DNA of 64,000 nucleotides from a virus. The notes beneath the pieces were generated by a model that saw only the letters and a list, made by a program, of their open reading frames with translations, was not told the origin of the DNA and did no database searches. Of this stretch, positions 1 through 64,000 are shown in pieces (position 1 is the first letter of the stretch; each line of letters starts with the position of its first letter). The stretch is taken from the IMG/VR virus record IMGVR_UViG_3300032309_000931, positions 1 to 64,000 of that record. One strand, written 5' to 3'. A program made the position numbers and the translations under genes.

Positions 1-743
1 ACTGCCCCAGCCCCCTGACGAGCACCTAGCTGGTTAGCATAAGAGAATGAGTCTTCAAGAAGCTTCATTACTGGAATGACCCCTGAAGACTGGTTCTCAA
101 CCTTTTTGATTGGAGCACCTGCTTCACGAAGGTTTGTTAGGTTTAGTGCTACACCACCACCACGCTTTGAAAGCTGGAGTGAGGAGTTGATTGCACGAGC
201 AATCGATTCCATATTATCCTCAATACGGAGTAGGAAGCAAGAAACAAACTCTCCCCTTTGTTTCTTTGCAGCATTGAGAAATGTTGGTGTAGCAGGTTGA
301 AAGCGACCAGAGATTAGTTCATCAACTATATCAATCGCAAGTACTTTATTTCCGTTGGCAAGCATAAGGGCTGTAACAACTACACGATCTTCAAATCGTT
401 CTAGATAGCGTGAGCCATCGAATGTCTTGAGTGCATATGAGGTATAGAACTTGTATGCTCCAAGGAATGTTGGGAAGCGGAATCGCTTTGCGTATGCGTG
501 TTGAAACGCTGACTTAATAAAAGGGAAGTCGTAGAGATCTAAAACATCCTTGTCATAGTATTCGTGTTCAACTAAATAGTCCAGCTTCTCCTGAAGGCTG
601 TGGAAGAAGACAGTATTTTGGTTCACGTGGTCAAGGAAGTATGCCTTTGCAGCCTCCTTGTCTTTGTGAAACTGAATCTGACCATTCTCGTCATAGAGAT
701 TCAGCATTGCATTTAGTTCGTGGTAACTGTAGTTACTTGTCAT
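1..743 (-). CDS. nrdE: Ribonucleotide reductase class Ib alpha subunit (runs off window edge)
   Basis: Read by hand from ATG at 743: [25 protein letters not shown]...[11 protein letters not shown]...VSCFLL...SKRGGGVA...[10 protein letters not shown], typical NrdE motifs; follows nrdI. Confidence 0.95.
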
Positions 744-56995: not shown

Positions 56996-57205
56996 ATGAC
57001 CGATGAACAAAAGCCTGTAATGCCTTGGGACCTACTTAATCCAAACCAGCCTCGTAGCACAAAAGAACTTAAAGCAGAGCGTCTTGCCATATGTGCAGAA
57101 TGTCCTTTATATAATTCATTTGCCCATACGTGTACAATATGTAAATGTTTTATGAAGATGAAGACTAAACTTGCTCACGCTTATTGTCCTATACATAAAT
57201 GGTGA
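56996..57205 (+). CDS. Cys-rich small protein
   Basis: RLAICAECP...CTICKCFM..KT.L....CP..KW; ATG 6 nt after TGATATACT. Confidence 0.75.
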   Translation: MTDEQKPVMPWDLLNPNQPRSTKELKAERLAICAECPLYNSFAHTCTICKCFMKMKTKLAHAYCPIHKW

Positions 57206-57328: not shown

Positions 57329-57502
57329 ATGGAAACAAATTATATGCACAAGGACTGGCTCACCGAACAATTTGTAGAGCTAAAGAAAACATCTCGTCAG
57401 ATCTCAAGAGAGATTAATGTATCAAGAAAGATTATTAACGTATGTCTATTGAACTTTGGTCTTATTACAAGAGATGAATTGGAAGATTCTGATCTACCGT
57501 GA
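57329..57502 (+). CDS. Small HTH protein (57 aa, not in ORF track)
   Basis: METNYMHKDWLTEQFVELKKTSRQISREINVSRKIINVCLLNFGL; ATG 6 nt after TGATATAAT. Confidence 0.65.
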   Translation: METNYMHKDWLTEQFVELKKTSRQISREINVSRKIINVCLLNFGLITRDELEDSDLP

Positions 57503-57885: not shown

Positions 57886-58047
57886 CTAGGCTAGTGGAAT
57901 CCAAGACCCACACTCTAGGCACGTGTCCGTAGCAACGTGGAACCAAGATTCTTCGTCACACACTACGCAGTCAGCGATAGCGTATCCTTCAACGTGCTGT
58001 CCACTAGCGAGCATTTCGTCACATTCTTCTGAGAGTAGCATTTCCAT
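57886..58047 (-). CDS. 53-aa zinc-ribbon microprotein
   Basis: MEMLLSEECDEML...CVVC...CLECG; AAAGGACA RBS; own promoter at 58084-58105. Confidence 0.65.
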   Translation of the reverse strand: MEMLLSEECDEMLASGQHVEGYAIADCVVCDEESWFHVATDTCLECGSWIPLA

Positions 58048-58288
58048 TTGTCTGTCCTTTGTTTGTGTTTCTTTGATATCTAAATACTATGTCATAGCAC
58101 GGACATATAACTACCAATACCGCACATATTTAGGTGAACAATAGGTTAACAAATTTTGCGCCCCCCACGCAACATTCTTGCGTGTTTTTACGACTTACGC
58201 AATAAATCCCCAAATAGCCTGTTTTTAGCCCTATTCTGGTAGTTTTATGTCGGTGGTCGATGTTACACTAAATATATAAACAAACAGA

Positions 58289-58370
58289 GAAACCAAAGAG
58301 AGTGAGCCTCTCAGAGCAAATAAGACCCAAAGGGTATGAGCCTCTCAGAGCAAATAAATCTCAAGGTTTC
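58289..58370 (+). ncRNA. Structured leader with two copies of the RUGAGC/CAAAUAAR motif
   Basis: GAAACC..GAGA GTGAGC CTCTCAGAG CAAATAAG ACCC-AAA-GGGT ATGAGC CTCTCAGAG CAAATAAA TCTC..GGTTTC. Confidence 0.55.
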
Positions 58371-58388
58371 AGATAAGGATAGAAAATA

Positions 58389-58499
58389 ATGAATGAATTT
58401 CACGGAAATTGCCAAAAGTGTGGCACTTGGAATCGAATTGCGTTTGTAGGTTCGATGTCCCTTAGCCAATTGCTTTGCAAGGCTTGCCGTAACAAGTAA
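58389..58499 (+). CDS. 36-aa zinc-ribbon microprotein
   Basis: MNEFHGNCQKCGTWNRIAFVGSMSLSQLLCKACRNK; AAGGA RBS. Confidence 0.7.
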   Translation: MNEFHGNCQKCGTWNRIAFVGSMSLSQLLCKACRNK

Positions 58500-58691
58500 G
58501 CCCCATAGCTTGTGCATAAGTTATCCACAGGCGGCGCACCACCATATCTAGTAACATACTGACATTTACGTACTACATATAGATTCCCCTGAATTATAAC
58601 AAAATGGTAACATAGCGTAACAATAGGGCATATCGATTAGTTATATGTCGGTGGTCTGTGTTAGGCTGTAGACATAAAGAAAGGAAATGAA

Positions 58692-58814
58692 ATGAACGAA
58701 TTTCACGGTAACTGCCAGAACTGTAAGGTCTGGACAAAGGTAGCCTTCAATGGCTCAATGGGTCTGAGTGAGTTGCTCTGCTCGCTCTGCCGTATGACAC
58801 AGGCTACCAAGTAG
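58692..58814 (+). CDS. 40-aa zinc-ribbon microprotein (paralog of 58389)
   Basis: MNEFHGNCQNCKVWTKVAFNGSMGLSELLCSLCRMTQATK. Confidence 0.7.
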   Translation: MNEFHGNCQNCKVWTKVAFNGSMGLSELLCSLCRMTQATK

Positions 58815-58866
58815 TTTCGTGTCGTACCTCTAGGCTATACTGATAACAACAAGTAAGGACAAACAA

Positions 58867-59046
58867 ATGGAAATCGAAAACGAAATCGACATCAACGAAG
58901 TTGAGGACATCAACATCAACACTCTCACGCCTAAGCAAATGGCACTACGCCTAAACGCTCTCGTTCGTTTGGCTCAGGGTGAAACATTCACTACCCACGA
59001 TTTTGAGGAAGCCCTAACGCTCACTCGCAAACTGGCTAAGCGATAG
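58867..59046 (+). CDS. 59-aa microprotein with acidic N-terminus
   Basis: MEIENEIDINEVEDININ...; AAGGACA RBS after promoter. Confidence 0.65.
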   Translation: MEIENEIDINEVEDININTLTPKQMALRLNALVRLAQGETFTTHDFEEALTLTRKLAKR

Positions 59047-59054
59047 GGGAACCA

Positions 59055-59144
59055 ATGCTAGTCTCAAACATCGCCACAGTAATTTGTGTGCTACTAATCG
59101 GATACCTAATAATCTACATCGCTCAGGAGATAAGCAATGACTAA
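59055..59144 (+). CDS. 29-aa TM microprotein
   Basis: MLVSNIATVICVLLIGYLIIYIAQEISND. Confidence 0.5.
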   Translation: MLVSNIATVICVLLIGYLIIYIAQEISND

Positions 59145-59226
59145 ATGTAAAGAGTGTAAGCGTAACCTAACTGTAATAATCGAAAACTATCCTGATTTGT
59201 GTTGGTCGTGTGTGATGGAACAGTAG
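59137..59226 (+). CDS. 29-aa CxxC/CxxC microprotein
   Basis: MTKCKECKRNLTVIIENYPDLCWSCVMEQ; AGGAG RBS. Confidence 0.55.
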   Translation: MTKCKECKRNLTVIIENYPDLCWSCVMEQ

Positions 59227-59395
59227 GCGGATCGACTTATCCACAGCCCCCGAAAAGTTATCCACAGGGGGGCGCAAACTTATCCACAGCCTGTTAGTAA
59301 CTTAGTTACGAATTGTTACGAACTTTCCCTAAAATTCCCTAGTTTTATGTCGGTGGTCAATGATAAAATGTAAACATACAAGCAAAGGACAAAAA

Positions 59396-59512
59396 ATGAA
59401 CTGGTATCAAGTACTCGTAGAGTATGATGAAATGATTGGCACAATCTATGTTGCGGCAGATGAATTGGAAGCATTCAAGGCAAAGTATAAAGTGCTAAGC
59501 GTAATCATCTAG
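59396..59512 (+). CDS. 38-aa microprotein
   Basis: MNWYQVLVEYDEMIG...; AAAGGACA RBS. Confidence 0.65.
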   Translation: MNWYQVLVEYDEMIGTIYVAADELEAFKAKYKVLSVII

Positions 59513-59568
59513 GGTTTCGTGTCGGTGGTCGCTGGTATACTAATAACATAAACAAGAAAAGGACAATA

Positions 59569-59709
59569 ATGACAAAGAGTCGATACACAACCGTACTGGT
59601 GGAAATGCCAGACAAGATTTTTTTCCAAGCAATCCACATCTATGATTGGGCTAAGGAAATCGAATACTTGAAATCTCAGGGTGCTACTTCTATCACTATA
59701 GCCAAGTAG
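59569..59709 (+). CDS. 46-aa microprotein
   Basis: MTKSRYTTVLVEMPDK...; AAAGGACA RBS. Confidence 0.65.
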   Translation: MTKSRYTTVLVEMPDKIFFQAIHIYDWAKEIEYLKSQGATSITIAK

Positions 59710-59718
59710 TTATCCACA

Positions 59719-59768
59719 GGGGTATCGAATGAGCCTGTAGTTATCCACAGCAAATAAGTCGATACCCC
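59719..59768 (+). ncRNA. RUGAGC/CAAAUAAR motif copy 3
   Basis: GGGGTATCGA ATGAGC CTGT-AGTTATCC-ACAG CAAATAAG TCGATACCCC. Confidence 0.55.
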
Positions 59769-59901
59769 CAAAGTTATCCACAGGCTGCGCCCCACGCAAG
59801 TTTATTGCGTCTTTATGAAGATAGTTGCGTTTTCCCTGAATTGGGGGGTTTTATGTCGGTGGTCGGCTGTATACTGATAACATAGACAGAAAAGGACAAC
59901 T

Positions 59902-60081
59902 ATGACAAATCAACTCCCAGAAAACAAGGCAACTGCCGAACAGTATGAAACTCTCAAATCGCTTATCACAAAGCGTTACCCTGACGCAGACCTGCTTCAC
60001 ATCTACGCTTCACTCTCAGGCGTACTTTCAGTAGGCGTATCTGAAGAGGCTATGGCACGACTTATCGAACTACACCAGTAG
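59902..60081 (+). CDS. 59-aa microprotein
   Basis: MTNQLPENKATAEQYE...; AAAGGACA RBS. Confidence 0.65.
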   Translation: MTNQLPENKATAEQYETLKSLITKRYPDADLLHIYASLSGVLSVGVSEEAMARLIELHQ

Positions 60082-60133
60082 TTTCGTGTCGGTGCTCACC
60101 AGTATAATTGTAATACAAGCAGAAAAGGAAAAA

Positions 60134-60367
60134 ATGGAACAACTAATCGGAACAAACGTAAAAACACACAACCACGCTTATCTTGGTGAGGTTCGCAACG
60201 TGTCTAGACTGTTTGTAAAGCCTATCTATCGTCACCTGAGAGGCATTGAGGCTAACGAGCCTTATGTTGCCTACGCTGTCGAAATCGAAGGCTCGGACAG
60301 TCCTAAAGGCTGGACAACGCTTATCGCTCGTGATGAAGCAGACATCCTGAAGCGTTACGCAGTCTAA
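60134..60367 (+). CDS. Small hypothetical protein
   Basis: Start MEQLIG after AAAGGA. Confidence 0.65.
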   Translation: MEQLIGTNVKTHNHAYLGEVRNVSRLFVKPIYRHLRGIEANEPYVAYAVEIEGSDSPKGWTTLIARDEADILKRYAV

Positions 60368-60374
60368 TCCGTAA

Positions 60375-60416
60375 GGGGAGAGAGTGAGCCTCGCAAGAGC
60401 AAATAAATCTCTCCCC
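60375..60416 (+). ncRNA. RUGAGC/CAAAUAAR motif copy 4
   Basis: GGGGAGAGA GTGAGC CTC-GCAA-GAG CAAATAAA TCTCTCCCC. Confidence 0.55.
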
Positions 60417-60579
60417 AAACAGGATACATTCCAAAATGGGAATGTGTGTCAATCTCAAAAAAATGCGCCCCCCCCCACCCCTAGCCTTAATTACGAATTA
60501 AGAAAACAAATCCCAGATTCCCGAATTAGATGTCGGTGGTCAATGTTATACTGTATACATAACGAAAGGACATAAGCAA

Positions 60580-60846
60580 ATGGCTTACTCAAACACTCAC
60601 GCAGATTTCTACCAGACGGCTATGGGGACTATGGTCACAGAGCCTCAGTCGGCTTGGGATACCTCTACTCACTGTGCAGACTGTGGCGTTCAGTACGCTT
60701 ACTGTGGCTGCCCCAACGAGGACATTGACGAGCCTGTTGATGGCTTTGCTGTCTGTGCTGTCTGCGACTATACCGTTCGTGGACTATTCTATCTCAATGG
60801 GGATTCAACTGGTCGCTGTGCTGGATGCCATAACTCTATTCGATAG
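60580..60846 (+). CDS. Cys-rich zinc-binding protein
   Basis: CADC..CGC..CAVC..CAGC; AAAGGACA RBS. Confidence 0.7.
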   Translation: MAYSNTHADFYQTAMGTMVTEPQSAWDTSTHCADCGVQYAYCGCPNEDIDEPVDGFAVCAVCDYTVRGLFYLNGDSTGRCAGCHNSIR

Positions 60847-60985
60847 GAGTTATCCACAGGCTGGGGCGCAGCTTTTGATCCTAGACATAATTACGTAAGC
60901 ATTAAAAATACCCTGGAAATTTCCCTAGTTTTATGTCGGTGCTCAGATGTATAATTATATTATCAACCAAACAAAGGACAAAGTA

Positions 60986-61537
60986 ATGACTACTCTCACC
61001 GCTAACGAAATTCACACCGCAACTGCTACAGATTTGTACCGTGACCTGATTGTTCGTGCTACTCTTGGACAGGTCGAACAGGCTAGTGTCTGGTATCACG
61101 AAGCACAAGAAGTTGCCCAAGAGGTTGCTCGTAATCTGGACACAACGCTAGAGGTTGGTGCTAGTGTCGTATCTGCGTTTTCTCCTCGTGAGCGTTGGGC
61201 AAGCAACATCGAAAAGGCTGTGGCGTTCTCACTTGGACACACGCCTAAAGGATTGGGCAACAACCTCAAAATGGCACAGTCCTCGCTGACTGCTGGATTC
61301 TATGCCCTCAAGGGTCTCAAGACTAATGCGTTTGCTCGTGCCATTGCTGGAGATACTGACGCTGTTGTGATTGACATTTGGATGATGAGAGCGGCAGGTA
61401 TGGAAACTGATAGCCCAACTCAAGGACAGTATTTCGCACTCTCACTTGCTTGCCGTAATGTCGCTAAAGAATTTGGGCTTACTCCTCGCACCGCACAGGC
61501 TCTGATTTGGATTCTCGTGAGAGGCTCAGCAATCTAA
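60986..61537 (+). CDS. HhH-GPD/DNA glycosylase-like helical protein
   Basis: WY..A..VA, SAFSP..RW..N, GLKTNAF, VVIDIW..RA, P..AQALIW. Confidence 0.55.
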   Translation: MTTLTANEIHTATATDLYRDLIVRATLGQVEQASVWYHEAQEVAQEVARNLDTTLEVGASVVSAFSPRERWASNIEKAVAFSLGHTPKGLGNNLKMAQSSLTAGFYALKGLKTNAFARAIAGDTDAVVIDIWMMRAAGMETDSPTQGQYFALSLACRNVAKEFGLTPRTAQALIWILVRGSAI

Positions 61538-61653
61538 GGGCTACCCCGAAAGGGGTTGCGCCCCACGCAGCTTTCTTGCGTAATTACGAACAATTTTTGT
61601 TTTTCCCTAAATTTGGGTAGTTATGTGTCGGTGCTCTGATGTATACTAATACT

Positions 61654-61818
61654 ATGAAGAAAAAGAACCCAACTCACAAAGGTATTGAGAACAAGCCCTA
61701 CATTGAGGCTATGCGTGAATTGCGTAGGTCTAACGCAGCCACTACCCACGACAACCGCCCTAACCGTTTGCGTACTCGCAAAGCAATCAAAACCCAAGCA
61801 ATCAAGGAGAACGAATAA
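61654..61818 (+). CDS. 54-aa basic microprotein, leaderless
   Basis: MKKKNP...MRELRRSNAATTH..R.RTR; ATG 6 nt after TATACT. Confidence 0.65.
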   Translation: MKKKNPTHKGIENKPYIEAMRELRRSNAATTHDNRPNRLRTRKAIKTQAIKENE

Positions 61819-61985
61819 TGGAATGTGAATTCTGCACTAATGAAAAACTGGCTACCGTTTCGGTTATGCACCTGCGTGACCGTATCGAACAAGCCGCCTG
61901 TGGCAAGTGTGCCAACGACCTATCTGATGAAAAGTGGGTAGTCACTCACGAATTCGACACATCTATCTGGGATTTTGCAGGGTAG
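61818..61985 (+). CDS. 55-aa zinc-finger microprotein
   Basis: MECEFC...ACGKC; TAATG coupling, AAGGAG RBS. Confidence 0.6.
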   Translation: MECEFCTNEKLATVSVMHLRDRIEQAACGKCANDLSDEKWVVTHEFDTSIWDFAG

Positions 61986-62040
61986 TTATGTGTCGGTGGT
62001 CTAGGTTATAATAGTAATACGAACAAAGAAAAGGACAGAA

Positions 62041-62214
62041 ATGAAAAAGTACAACTTCACTGGTTTCGCATTCGGTAGTAACGGAGAAATGGTTTTCCGT
62101 ATTGAGGTTCTGAACCACACCGAAAACGGAACAAATGTTTCCACCCAAATCGATTTGGAACTCACACCAGAGGAACGAACCGAACTCATCACCCAACTTA
62201 TCTCAATCAAGTAG
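62041..62214 (+). CDS. 57-aa microprotein
   Basis: MKKYNFTGFAFGSNG...; AAAGGACA RBS. Confidence 0.65.
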   Translation: MKKYNFTGFAFGSNGEMVFRIEVLNHTENGTNVSTQIDLELTPEERTELITQLISIK

Positions 62215-62265
62215 TTTGGTGTCGGTGCTTCACGCTATAATAGAACTACGAACAAAGGACAATAA

Positions 62266-62445
62266 ATGAAAGACACAATCAACCGTTCAGGTGAGGTAAT
62301 CGAAAATCTCACAATCGCACAGGGTGACCGCCGTTATGCTTACGCATTTGCGTTTGGATTTGCGTGGTCTTTGCTCTCGGAAAAGAACCGTAAAGAGTTG
62401 CTGAAAATCTCAGAACGAAAAGCACAAGAAAAGGACAACGACTAA
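62266..62445 (+). CDS. 59-aa microprotein
   Basis: MKDTINRSGEVIENL...YAFAFGFAWSLL; AAAGGACA RBS. Confidence 0.6.
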   Translation: MKDTINRSGEVIENLTIAQGDRRYAYAFAFGFAWSLLSEKNRKELLKISERKAQEKDND

Positions 62446-62642
62446 TGACAAAGTATCCAGAAATCGAAGTACAACTTACAGGACAAGACGGCAACGCATT
62501 CGCAATTATGGGTGCGGTATCTCGTGAACTCCGCAAGGCTGGGGTATCCAAAGAGGAAATCAACGAATACACTACGCAATCTATGTCTGGCGACTATGAC
62601 AACCTTTTGCGTACTGCTATGGCTTGGGTGAGTGTATCCTAA
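62445..62642 (+). CDS. Conserved phage hypothetical protein
   Basis: LTGQDGNAFAIMG.V...LR.AG...SGDYDNLL. Confidence 0.75.
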   Translation: MTKYPEIEVQLTGQDGNAFAIMGAVSRELRKAGVSKEEINEYTTQSMSGDYDNLLRTAMAWVSVS

Positions 62643-62821
62643 TGATGACACGCAAAGACTATGTAGCCGTTTCAGAATTGCTGAACACCTACGCTCTCAA
62701 AATAGATGAGCAAACATTCGACCTACTCATTCACGACTTTGCTGGACTGATGGCAAAGGACAATGAGCGTTTCATCGCTGACCGTTTCATCTCCGCTTGC
62801 TGGAATGGCGAGAATGCTTGA
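62642..62821 (+). CDS. Conserved phage hypothetical protein
   Basis: MTRKDY...DNERF..DRF..AC. Confidence 0.7.
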   Translation: MMTRKDYVAVSELLNTYALKIDEQTFDLLIHDFAGLMAKDNERFIADRFISACWNGENA

Positions 62822-62879
62822 GATTATTGTTATCACGCTGGGGGTATTGGCAGTACTCCTGGCGTGGTTCAATGACTAA
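62814..62879 (+). CDS. 21-aa TM peptide
   Basis: MLEIIVITLGVLAVLLAWFND; overlaps upstream stop. Confidence 0.35.
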   Translation: MLEIIVITLGVLAVLLAWFND

Positions 62880-62998
62880 AATTTTGCGCCCCCCTGCCCT
62901 CACAAACCTATTACTAACCTTACGATCTTTTTCCCGAAATTCACAGAGTTTGATGTCGGTGGTACTTGGTATAATAGAAACATAACGAAAGGACACTA

Positions 62999-63332: not shown

Positions 63333-63443
63333 ATGAACGAACAATTTATCGAATGCCCCCAATGTGGCGACACAGTAATCGAATCCGATATGCGTGAGGT
63401 AGGCGTATGTTGGGAATGTGACTATCTACCAGAGGAGAAATAA
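63333..63443 (+). CDS. 36-aa zinc-ribbon microprotein, leaderless
   Basis: MNEQFIECPQCG...VCWECD; ATG 6 nt after TATAAT. Confidence 0.6.
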   Translation: MNEQFIECPQCGDTVIESDMREVGVCWECDYLPEEK

Positions 63444-63992: not shown

Positions 63993-64000
63993 GAGCTGCG

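What the first reader, a model, noticed from the sequence alone, without database searches (positions are those of the whole stretch)
58158..62889. GCGC appears absent from the first 58 kb yet recurs between early cassettes
Seen by eye, not computed: I found no GCGC in 1-58,100, even in Gly/Ala-rich genes. It occurs at 58158, 58534, 59272, 59787, 60465, 60866, 61558 and 62886, and the window ends in an intergenic TGCG. Each is in the context TGCGCC or its complement GGCGCA, and each lies between transcription units. Inference: GCGC is purged as a host restriction target but kept where a cut would leave each cassette intact. The sites could be restriction decoys, methylation sensors, or breaks whose resection supplies the ssDNA that activates PafBC. 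A simpler alternative is a binding site for a phage regulator.
Basis: partly seen in the sequence, partly recalled or inferred. Interest (0 to 1): 0.7.

Follow-up and report, generated by a model that had tools for sequence, protein, structure and literature searches.

The report
Strain-specific GC box between early phage genes
The only GCGC sites in this phage lie in an 8-base box (TGCGCCCC) in front of early promoters, and close relatives carry a different box at the same spots, so it looks like a strain-specific protein-binding site, not a kept restriction site.

Summary
The window has 8 GCGC at the stated coordinates. The whole 93,875-bp phage genome has 13, against 73-114 expected. All 13 are intergenic, at 58.1-71.3 kb, and all read TGCGCC. 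CATG, CCGG, GGCC, CGCG and CYCGRG are purged too, and selection against GCGC outside the boxes was still acting while this lineage diverged.

GCGC is not the functional unit. It is part of an 8-bp box, TGCGCCCC, whose centre lies about 65 bp upstream of repeated TGTCGGTG-N8-TAnnnT early promoters (RecA-NDp/PafBC-like). In relatives that also purge GCGC, the same cassettes carry another box at the same position: CGCGCCCC, CCCGAGCC, GCCGACC, GGGCGGCC or GGGGCCCC. Each genome holds one type only, although neighbouring genes are mosaic.

Best reading (about 50%): a lineage-specific recognition site for an unidentified DNA-binding factor. But 78% of GC-only 8-mers would do so by chance, and other types hold none. 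Decoy, sensor and break models are unsupported but not excluded.

The scan has already noted kindred junction motifs in related phage genomes (GGCGCC, e1-5915413; GATC, e1-5965532).

The parts
58157..58164 (+). Box 1, TGCGCCCC. It abuts the hairpin CACGCAA-CATTC-TTGCGTG-TTTTT (58166-58184).
58531..58538 (-). Box 2, in reverse orientation (TGCGCCGC on the minus strand), 2 nt after TTATCCACAGG.
59269..59276 (-). Box 3, in reverse orientation (TGCGCCCC on the minus strand), with TTATCCACAG on both sides.
59786..59793 (+). Box 4, TGCGCCCC, lying between TTATCCACAGGC and the hairpin ACGCAAG..TTGCGT.
60464..60471 (+). Box 5, TGCGCCCC, followed by a run of C.
60863..60870 (-). Box 6, in reverse orientation. 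The orthologous cassette in relatives carries CCGAGCC (type B) or GCGCCCC preceded by C (type E).
61557..61564 (+). Box 7, TGCGCCCC, after the hairpin CCCCGAAAGGGG. Orthologues carry CCCGAGCC (type B) or GGGCGCGGC (type E).
62885..62892 (+). Box 8, TGCGCCCC, directly after the stop codon of a small ORF.
63997..64000 (+). First four bases of box 9, which the window end cuts off. In the genome it reads CTGCGCCCCCC. Four more boxes follow at 65477, 66826, 68054 and 71244.
58248..58269 (+). The first of 8 long-spacer early promoters in the window, of form TGTCGGTG-N8-TAnnnT. The others start at 58646, 59348, 59854, 60531, 60934, 61626 and 62954. Each has a box 66-112 bp upstream.
59520..59541 (+). 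One of the 'in-line' promoters of the same type. These follow a stop codon directly and have no box. Others start at 60087, 61991, 62220 and 63305.
58521..60858 (+). Eight co-oriented TTATCCACA words (DnaA-box-like) in the same spacers, often 1-6 nt from a box.

Best explanation
The GCGC sites are the core of an 8-bp box, TGCGCCCC. The box is one module of a stereotyped spacer between early-gene cassettes. The usual order is: terminator hairpin, DnaA-box-like TTATCCACAGG, box, TGTnnnnACA-like element, TTACGAA, TCCCnnAAWT, then the promoter TGTCGGTG-N8-TAnnnT.

The box most likely acts as a DNA-level recognition site for a sequence-specific factor whose specificity differs between closely related phage lineages. 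It would work like an operator, or like the specificity positions of phage promoters, tuning or insulating the early promoters about 100 bp downstream. It carries GCGC only because this lineage's version of the box happens to contain it. The 13 sites are tolerated despite a genome-wide purge, perhaps because the bound factor covers them.

Shown here: the box, its fixed position, its in-place replacement in relatives, and one box type per genome.
For: (1) The box is a sharp island of conservation. Eight positions carry about 1.5-2.1 bits and the flanks about 0-0.5 bits, in G000 and in five relatives. T at position 1 and CC at positions 7-8 are conserved beyond the GCGC core.

(2) Position is fixed. 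The distance from box centre to TGTCGG is 63-67 bp in 38 of 87 cassettes, with smaller groups at 72-75 and 82-86. Both orientations occur at the same distance.

(3) Orthologous cassettes, with alignable flanks and the same downstream gene, carry TGCGCCCC, CGCGCCCC or CCCGAGCC according to genome.

(4) Types never mix within a genome: TGCGCC/CGCGCC/CCCGAGC counts are 13/0/0, 0/10/0 and 0/0/14. Yet the early genes are mosaic. The DUF7178 gene of G000 is 92-93% identical to those of type-E and type-B genomes but only 76-78% identical to those of type-A genomes. Uniformity despite exchange implies selection for a match to something acting in trans.

(5) The box is not part of a conserved fold: its pairing probability is 0.58, against 0.59 for flank-shuffled controls. 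It occurs in both orientations (9 forward, 4 reverse), which fits a duplex DNA site.

(6) Relatives purge GCGC equally (0-1 copies in G001-G005), yet their boxes work without it.
Against: No reader was found. No phage protein tracks box type. The candidates that did show type association are spurious overlapping ORFs or a lysin. The conserved 57-aa protein with a helix-turn-helix-like stretch at 57329-57502 has nearly the same putative recognition stretch in types A and B. Pfam finds no DNA-binding domain in the lineage-specific genes.

In-line promoters of the same type work without a box, so the box is not needed for promoter activity as such.

Why 13 copies of a strictly purged word are tolerated remains unexplained.

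The cassettes are related by descent, so the position statistics are not independent samples.
Confidence: 0.5

Rival explanations
1. No sequence-specific reader exists. The box is just a short GC-rich segment of a repeated spacer, for example a GC clamp or insulator. Gene conversion or copy-and-paste of cassettes keeps it uniform within a genome, as in the promoter/stem-loop cassettes of T4-type phages.
For: All seven box types are GC-rich and many carry C or G runs. Cassettes are clearly repeated and reshuffled. No reader was found.
Against: Conservation falls to background within 1-2 nt of the box, while neighbouring spacer sequence differs between cassettes of one genome. Conversion tracts would not be that short. 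Types A and E differ by one base, and that base is fixed at all 10-13 sites of a genome. A pure composition requirement would allow mixtures.
Confidence: 0.17
2. The boxes are kept because they are host restriction or modification targets. They would act as decoys, as methylation sensors, or as cut sites whose processing yields ssDNA that switches on the PafBC-type early promoters, while leaving each cassette intact.
For: Three box types hold words that are otherwise absent from the genome: GCGC; CGCG with GCGC; and CYCGRG. They occur at 10-14 copies each. All sites are intergenic, next to promoters that match the RecA-NDp pattern. The phages have their own RecA and a nuclease. They have no WYL protein or sigma factor of their own, so they would depend on the host activator.
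Against: The conserved unit is 8 bp and asymmetric, longer than any of the palindromes. Types C and D hold no word purged in their own genome. Chance alone predicts a purged word in 51-78% of such boxes. All relatives purge GCGC, yet only some keep it. This arrangement is the opposite of T5, where the first-entering DNA is the part kept free of sites (from memory).
Confidence: 0.1
3. The boxes are recognition sites for a phage site-specific nicking system, like the localized single-strand interruptions of T5, phiKMV-like and tf/LUZ24-like phages.
For: Those systems use 7-9-bp asymmetric consensus sites. Relatives carry variant consensus sequences at similar genome positions. The T5 major-nick consensus is R/GCGCRGG (PMC3517423). 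An HNH endonuclease specific to G000 lies at 88,866-89,258.
Against: In the known systems all sites lie on one strand. Here the orientation is 9 forward to 4 reverse in G000 and is mixed in every relative. The flank differs from T5's. No read data could be obtained to look for ends.
Confidence: 0.08
4. The boxes are read by a host factor whose specificity varies from strain to strain, and box type tracks host strain rather than a phage gene.
For: No phage gene co-varies with box type. Purge profiles differ with lineage: CATG is 0-1 in all three type-A genomes, but 93 in G001 and 61 in G007. Tail-fibre genes differ strongly between genomes.
Against: Tail genes also differ within type A. The only host DNA specificities known to vary this fast are those of defence systems, and displaying their targets offers no clear benefit. 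The host is not identified.
Confidence: 0.12

Closest known systems
PeSLs (promoter-early stem-loops), the mobile regulatory cassettes of T4-type phages (Arbiol et al. 2010; recalled from memory and named by another agent's note, e1-5915413)
   Same: Both are arrays of small early genes, each with its own repeated promoter and a nearby hairpin. Gene content is mosaic between relatives.
   Different: The promoter here is of the RecA-NDp/PafBC pattern, not sigma-70 early. The spacer has several modules. One of them is a lineage-specific 8-bp box that is swapped in place. No such element is described for PeSLs.
Promoter or operator specificity classes in phages: T7/T3/SP6 promoter specificity positions and lambdoid heteroimmune operators (established knowledge, from memory)
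   Same: There are many sites per genome, all of one type, with a different type at the same positions in close relatives. That implies co-evolution with a reader.
   Different: The box lies about 100 bp upstream of the start site, works in either orientation, and is absent from some promoters of the same class.
Restriction-site avoidance in phage genomes
   Same: Palindromic 4-6-mers are depleted to 0-1 copies: CATG, CCGG, GGCC, CGCG, GCGC and CYCGRG. Non-palindromic words of the same composition are not depleted.
   Different: One purged word survives at 13 copies, confined to one regulatory element, and relatives keep a different purged word there.
Localized nick sites of T5, phiKMV-like and tf/LUZ24-like phages (PMC3517423)
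   Same: Both involve a short asymmetric consensus, with variant consensus sequences at similar positions in relatives. The T5 consensus contains GCGC.
   Different: Known nick sites lie on one strand only. These boxes lie in both orientations, and no nicks have been shown.
Pre-early (first-step-transfer) region of T5-like phages (from memory)
   Same: Both have a block of small early genes with repeats and DnaA-box-like words.
   Different: In T5 the first-entering DNA is the part kept free of restriction sites. Here the early block is the only part that holds them. Physical genome ends are not known for this phage.

Membership tests
Restriction-site avoidance | Palindromic words are far below Markov expectation, while non-palindromic words of the same composition are not. 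| tested here: met
   GCGC is 13 seen/73 expected, CGCG 1/44, CCGG 0/59, GGCC 0/103, CATG 1/300 and CYCGRG 0/26. GGCG, GCGG, CGCC and CCGC are at 1.6-1.7 times expectation.
Restriction-site avoidance | Selection against the word is still ongoing. | tested here: met
   Between G000 and G001 or G006, 0-2 of 74-78 substitutions at critical positions create GCGC, against 25-37% for control words.
Restriction-site avoidance | The host encodes matching restriction-modification systems. | not testable with these tools
   The host is unidentified. The GroES search gave only about 50% matches, to unrelated phyla.
PeSL-type mobile regulatory cassettes | A repeated early promoter plus a stem-loop flank small ORFs. 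| tested here: met
   There are 18 promoters of one pattern at 58-68 kb. Hairpins such as CCCCGAAAGGGG and CACGCAA..TTGCGTG lie in the spacers.
PeSL-type mobile regulatory cassettes | Cassette content is shuffled between relatives. | tested here: met
   Identities of early genes do not follow box type or backbone, and many early ORFs have no counterpart in G001.
PeSL-type mobile regulatory cassettes | T4-type phage with a sigma-70 early promoter. | tested here: not met
   The nearest named kin are Streptomyces siphoviruses of the Stanwilliamsviridae. The promoter has no -35 hexamer; it has TGTCGGTG 8 nt upstream of the -10 element.
Operator/reader specificity system | Sites are uniform within a genome and differ between close relatives at the same positions. 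| tested here: met
Operator/reader specificity system | A cognate DNA-binding protein co-varies with site type. | tested here: inconclusive
   No convincing candidate emerged among the ORFs of seven genomes. Most of those genomes are incomplete.
Localized phage nick sites | A short asymmetric consensus is repeated in the genome. | tested here: met
Localized phage nick sites | All sites lie on one strand. | tested here: not met
   Orientation is 9 forward and 4 reverse in G000, and is mixed in all relatives. The one-strand rule comes from PMC3517423.
Localized phage nick sites | Physical single-strand breaks are present in virion DNA. | not testable with these tools
RecA-NDp / PafBC-dependent promoters (context of the boxes) | The sequence follows the pattern TGTCRGTG-N8-TAnnnT, with no -35 hexamer. 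This consensus is recalled from memory; the family itself is documented in PMC6789036 and PMC5087735. | tested here: met
   G000 has 18 matches, all on the + strand at 58-68 kb. The backwards-read control pattern found almost nothing in relatives.
RecA-NDp / PafBC-dependent promoters (context of the boxes) | The promoter depends on host PafBC. | not testable with these tools
   The phages themselves encode no WYL protein and no sigma factor.
Phage self-methylation of the sites | The phage encodes a C5 or N4/N6 DNA methyltransferase. | tested here: not met
   PF00145 and PF01555 are absent from G000, G001, G003, G005 and G007, while the control genomes were positive.

The most novel reading that the evidence does not exclude
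The early-gene spacers carry a swappable 8-bp 'address' read by an unknown factor, and it defines mutually exclusive specificity classes among otherwise near-identical lytic phages. This would be a heteroimmunity-like or exclusion-group system acting on a whole array of host-PafBC-type promoters. In its boldest form, the box is a programmed nick or cut site whose processing provides the DNA-damage signal that fires those promoters.
Probability: 0.2. Interest if true: 0.8.

Novelty: new variant of a known kind. Interest (0 to 1): 0.6.

Why it matters
These phages form a large uncultured group, with more than 400 IMG/VR contigs whose DnaE is 80-97% identical. Their early genes appear to be driven by an actinobacterial DNA-damage-type promoter.

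A short element that is switched at every cassette between sister lineages points to a reader/site pair evolving as fast as immunity or restriction specificities. It could also show whether related phages exclude one another.

The finding is also a clean natural case of a regulatory site overriding strong selection against a restriction word. That bears on how far avoidance patterns can be used to infer host defence repertoires.

Tried and rejected
(1) Searching viral contigs for the promoter word TTATGTCGGTGGTC gave only single chance matches.

(2) No phage record resembles the early region at the DNA level.

(3) The Streptomyces phage BillNye is the nearest named kin (DnaE 56% identical). 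It has no such promoters or boxes and purges only GATC, so it is too distant to help.

(4) The hunt for a protein linked to box type found nothing convincing. It covered best hits across seven genomes, a within-type versus between-type identity test, type-only genes, small zinc-ribbon ORFs, and ORFs next to the first box.

(5) Genes present only in type A are a pyrimidine-dimer glycosylase, ThyX and GroES. None is a plausible reader.

(6) No methyltransferase of the two families searched, no sigma factor and no WYL protein was found in the phages.

(7) A hairpin role for the box was rejected.

(8) A test for helical periodicity in box-to-promoter spacing gave only a weak signal (R about 0.35 at periods of 9-11 bp), and the cassettes are not independent.

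(9) Host inference from the phage GroES gene failed.

(11) More distant relatives (L264-L267, L273-L279) gave no clear box type with my promoter pattern. L263 did, with GGGGCCCC.


Full report
OBSERVATION

A direct count finds exactly eight GCGC in the 64-kb window. They lie at 58158, 58534, 59272, 59787, 60465, 60866, 61558 and 62886, with none before 58,158. The second-order Markov expectation is 55.7. Each copy reads TGCGCC or its complement GGCGCA.

The window is the first 64 kb of a 93,875-bp virus record. The whole genome has 13 GCGC, all between 58,158 and 71,245, and all in the same context. The expectation is 73 by Markov-2 or 114 by a dinucleotide model. The TGCG at the window's end is the start of the ninth box.

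GCGC is not the only purged word. CATG is 1 seen against 300 expected, CCGG 0/59, GGCC 0/103, CGCG 1/44 and CYCGRG 0/26. Non-palindromic GC words such as GGCG and CCGC are over-represented. That is the usual signature of restriction avoidance.

WHAT SURROUNDS THE SITES

From about 58.2 kb the genes switch to the + strand and become very small. Eighteen copies of TGTC[GA]G[TG][GA]-N8-TAnnnT lie on the + strand between 58 and 68 kb. This matches the RecA-NDp, PafBC-dependent promoter type of actinobacteria. The family is documented in PMC6789036 and PMC5087735. The consensus letters are from my memory, and another first-stage note (e1-6007403) gave me the lead.

Twelve promoters have a long spacer, and every one of these has a box 66-112 bp upstream. 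Six or so 'in-line' promoters follow a stop codon directly and have no box.

The usual module order in a long spacer is:
- a hairpin, for example CCCCGAAAGGGG or CACGCAA..TTGCGTG-TTTTT;
- zero to three copies of TTATCCACAGG;
- the box;
- often a TGTnnnnACA-like element;
- TTACGAA;
- TCCCnnAAWT;
- the promoter.

The order and orientation of the first three modules vary.

THE BOX IS LONGER THAN GCGC

Aligned on the core, the 13 sites give TGCGCCCC, with about 1.5-2.1 bits at eight positions and about 0-0.5 bits in the flanks. Eleven of the 13 read GCGCCCC. The box occurs nine times forward and four times reversed relative to the promoters.

The distance from box centre to TGTCGG is 63-67 bp in 38 of 87 cassettes pooled over eight genomes, with smaller groups at 72-75 and 82-86. 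Both orientations occur at the same distance. Predicted pairing of the box bases equals that of flank-shuffled controls, 0.58 against 0.59. The box is therefore not part of a conserved hairpin.

RELATIVES

The nearest named phages are Streptomyces siphoviruses of the Stanwilliamsviridae, with portal 47% and DnaE 56% identical. One of them, BillNye, has none of these features.

IMG/VR holds more than 400 contigs with DnaE 80-97% identical. I fetched ten of them whole or nearly whole. All purge CCGG, CGCG and GCGC to 0-3 copies outside the boxes, except that G006 keeps 7 CGCG. Most purge GGCC. CATG is purged fully only in G000, G006 and G008.

At the position of the G000 box they carry:
- TGCGCCCC (type A) in G006 and G008;
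- CGCGCCCC (type E) in G007 and L268;
- CCCGAGCC (type B) in G001, G009 and G010;
- GCCGACC (type C) in G003 and G002;
- GGGCGGCC (type D) in G005;
- GGGGCCCC in L263.

G001, whose DnaE is 95% identical to that of G000, has no GCGC at all. It has 14 CCCGAG sites, all in its early spacers. CYCGRG is absent from G000, G002, G003, G004, G006 and G008.

IN-PLACE SWAP AND NO MIXING

Orthologous spacers align through their flanks, promoter and downstream gene, while the box itself differs. Upstream of the DUF7178 gene, type A has GGGGCGCA, type B has CCGAGCC and type E has C-GCGCCCC. Downstream of that gene the boxes are TGCGCCCC, CCCGAGCC and GGGCGCGGC. Orientation can differ between orthologues.

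Box types are mutually exclusive. Counts of TGCGCC/CGCGCC/CCCGAGC are 13/0/0 in G000, 0/10/0 in G007 and 0/0/14 in G001, and the pattern is the same elsewhere.

Yet the early genes are mosaic. The G000 DUF7178 protein is 92-93% identical to those of a type-E and a type-B genome, but only 76-78% identical to those of the other type-A genomes. Exchange of cassettes without mixing of box types argues for selection to match something acting in trans.

IS THE PURGE STILL ACTIVE?

G000 differs from G001 and G006 at 16-17% of aligned bases. I looked at 4-mers that are one change away from GCGC in the partner genome. At these, 74-78 changed at the critical base, but only 0-2 became GCGC. For control words 25-37% did. 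Selection against GCGC outside the boxes therefore continued while these lineages diverged. The 13 box copies are a real exception, not a leftover.

IS HOLDING A PURGED WORD SPECIAL?

This holds for type B (CYCGRG) and type E (CGCG plus GCGC). It does not hold for type C. For type D the contained GGCC is not purged in that genome, at 173 seen/188 expected.

By enumeration, 78% of GC-only 8-mers and 51% of 8-mers with seven G/C contain one of the purged words. Holding one is therefore what chance predicts for any GC-rich box. The notable fact is the reverse: the purge does not reach into the box.

WHO READS IT?

I could not find out. The phages encode no C5 or N4/N6 methyltransferase, no sigma factor and no WYL protein. 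No ORF family tracks box type. Type-only genes are metabolic or repair genes. The many tiny zinc-ribbon ORFs show no pattern. The conserved 57-aa protein with a helix-turn-helix-like stretch, just upstream of the array, is nearly the same in types A and B. Most of the genomes compared are incomplete, so this result is inconclusive.

RIVALS

A composition-only 'GC clamp' kept uniform by gene conversion fits poorly. Conservation has a very sharp edge, and a single base fixed at all sites separates types A and E.

Nick sites like those of T5 (consensus R/GCGCRGG) or tf are similar in form, but those lie on one strand only (PMC3517423). The boxes here do not.

COMPARISON AND NOVELTY

Repeated promoter/hairpin cassettes around small early genes are known from T4-type phages (PeSLs). 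Site classes that co-vary with a reader are known from T7-group promoters and lambdoid operators. Restriction avoidance is also well known.

What is new here is the combination:
- a lineage-specific 8-bp module inside such cassettes;
- replacement in place at every cassette between sister phages;
- a location in front of PafBC-type promoters;
- exemption from an otherwise strict purge.

Other agents of this scan reported related junction motifs in kindred genomes: GGCGCC in a phage of about 92 kb (e1-5915413) and GATC at cassette joints (e1-5965532). I did not check those genomes.

VERDICT

The restriction-centred interpretation is only partly supported. The most likely meaning is a strain-specific recognition box whose reader is unknown.

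Noticed in passing
window 58521, 59237, 59258, 59280, 59710, 59741, 59774, 60850 (+ strand); genome 71199 (+); 71824 and 71836 (- strand): There are nine perfect TTATCCACA words (DnaA-box consensus) co-oriented in the early spacers, usually as TTATCCACAGG and 1-6 nt from a box. Two inverted copies lie just past the last box. They are conserved in relatives of all box types.
   Followed up: partly
whole window and genome: The CATG purge depends on lineage. CATG is 1 seen/300 expected in G000 and 0 in G006 and G008, but 93 in G001 and 61 in G007. In G001, 53 of 295 critical changes create CATG. This suggests different host defence repertoires among near-identical phages. GGYRCC and GRGCYC are also depleted to varying degrees.
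   Followed up: partly
window 58389-58499, 58692-58814, 59137-59226, 61818-61985, 63333-63443, 56996-57205, 57886-58047 (-): Many tiny ORFs (29-69 aa) carry two CxxC pairs, like zinc ribbons. Two are paralogues at the start of the array. One is a G000-only ORF transcribed divergently from the first cassette.
   Followed up: partly
window 57329-57502 (+): A 57-aa protein with a helix-turn-helix-like stretch (TSRQISREINVSRKIINVCLLNFGL) lies just upstream of the early array and is conserved in all close relatives. It is a candidate reader of the conserved spacer modules (TTACGAA, TGTnnnnACA), but not of the variable box.
   Followed up: partly
spacers, e.g. genome 66837-66850, 71252-71265; relatives: A near-palindromic element, TTGTYATAACAWAC (TGT-N4-ACA), follows many boxes by 3-8 nt. 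TTACGAA (one or two copies) and TCCCnnAAWT lie between it and the promoter. All three are conserved across box types.
   Followed up: no
window 1-200 versus genome 93,676-93,875: The two ends of the record carry versions of the same ribonucleotide-reductase sequence that are similar by eye but not identical. This probably reflects a circular or permuted assembly closed over strain variants, not a true terminal repeat.
   Followed up: no
genome 73371-73850, 77013-77988: A T4 endonuclease V-like pyrimidine-dimer glycosylase, ThyX and a GroES homologue are present in the three type-A genomes but were not found in the type-B or type-E contigs.
   Followed up: partly
genome 80205-84447: A run of four or five glycosyltransferase-like genes lies on the + strand in the middle of a region that is otherwise on the minus strand.
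   Followed up: no
window 58289-58360 and 60376-60410: The word GAGTGAGCCTC..AGAGCAAATAA recurs after some early ORFs. Another first-stage note reads it as an RNA motif. I did not examine it.
   Followed up: no
relatives G002, G005, L263: In more distant lineages the box sits 15-17 nt after TTGACA, often with TGTCAA further on, instead of next to TTATCCACAGG. The spacer architecture itself differs between sub-groups.
   Followed up: no
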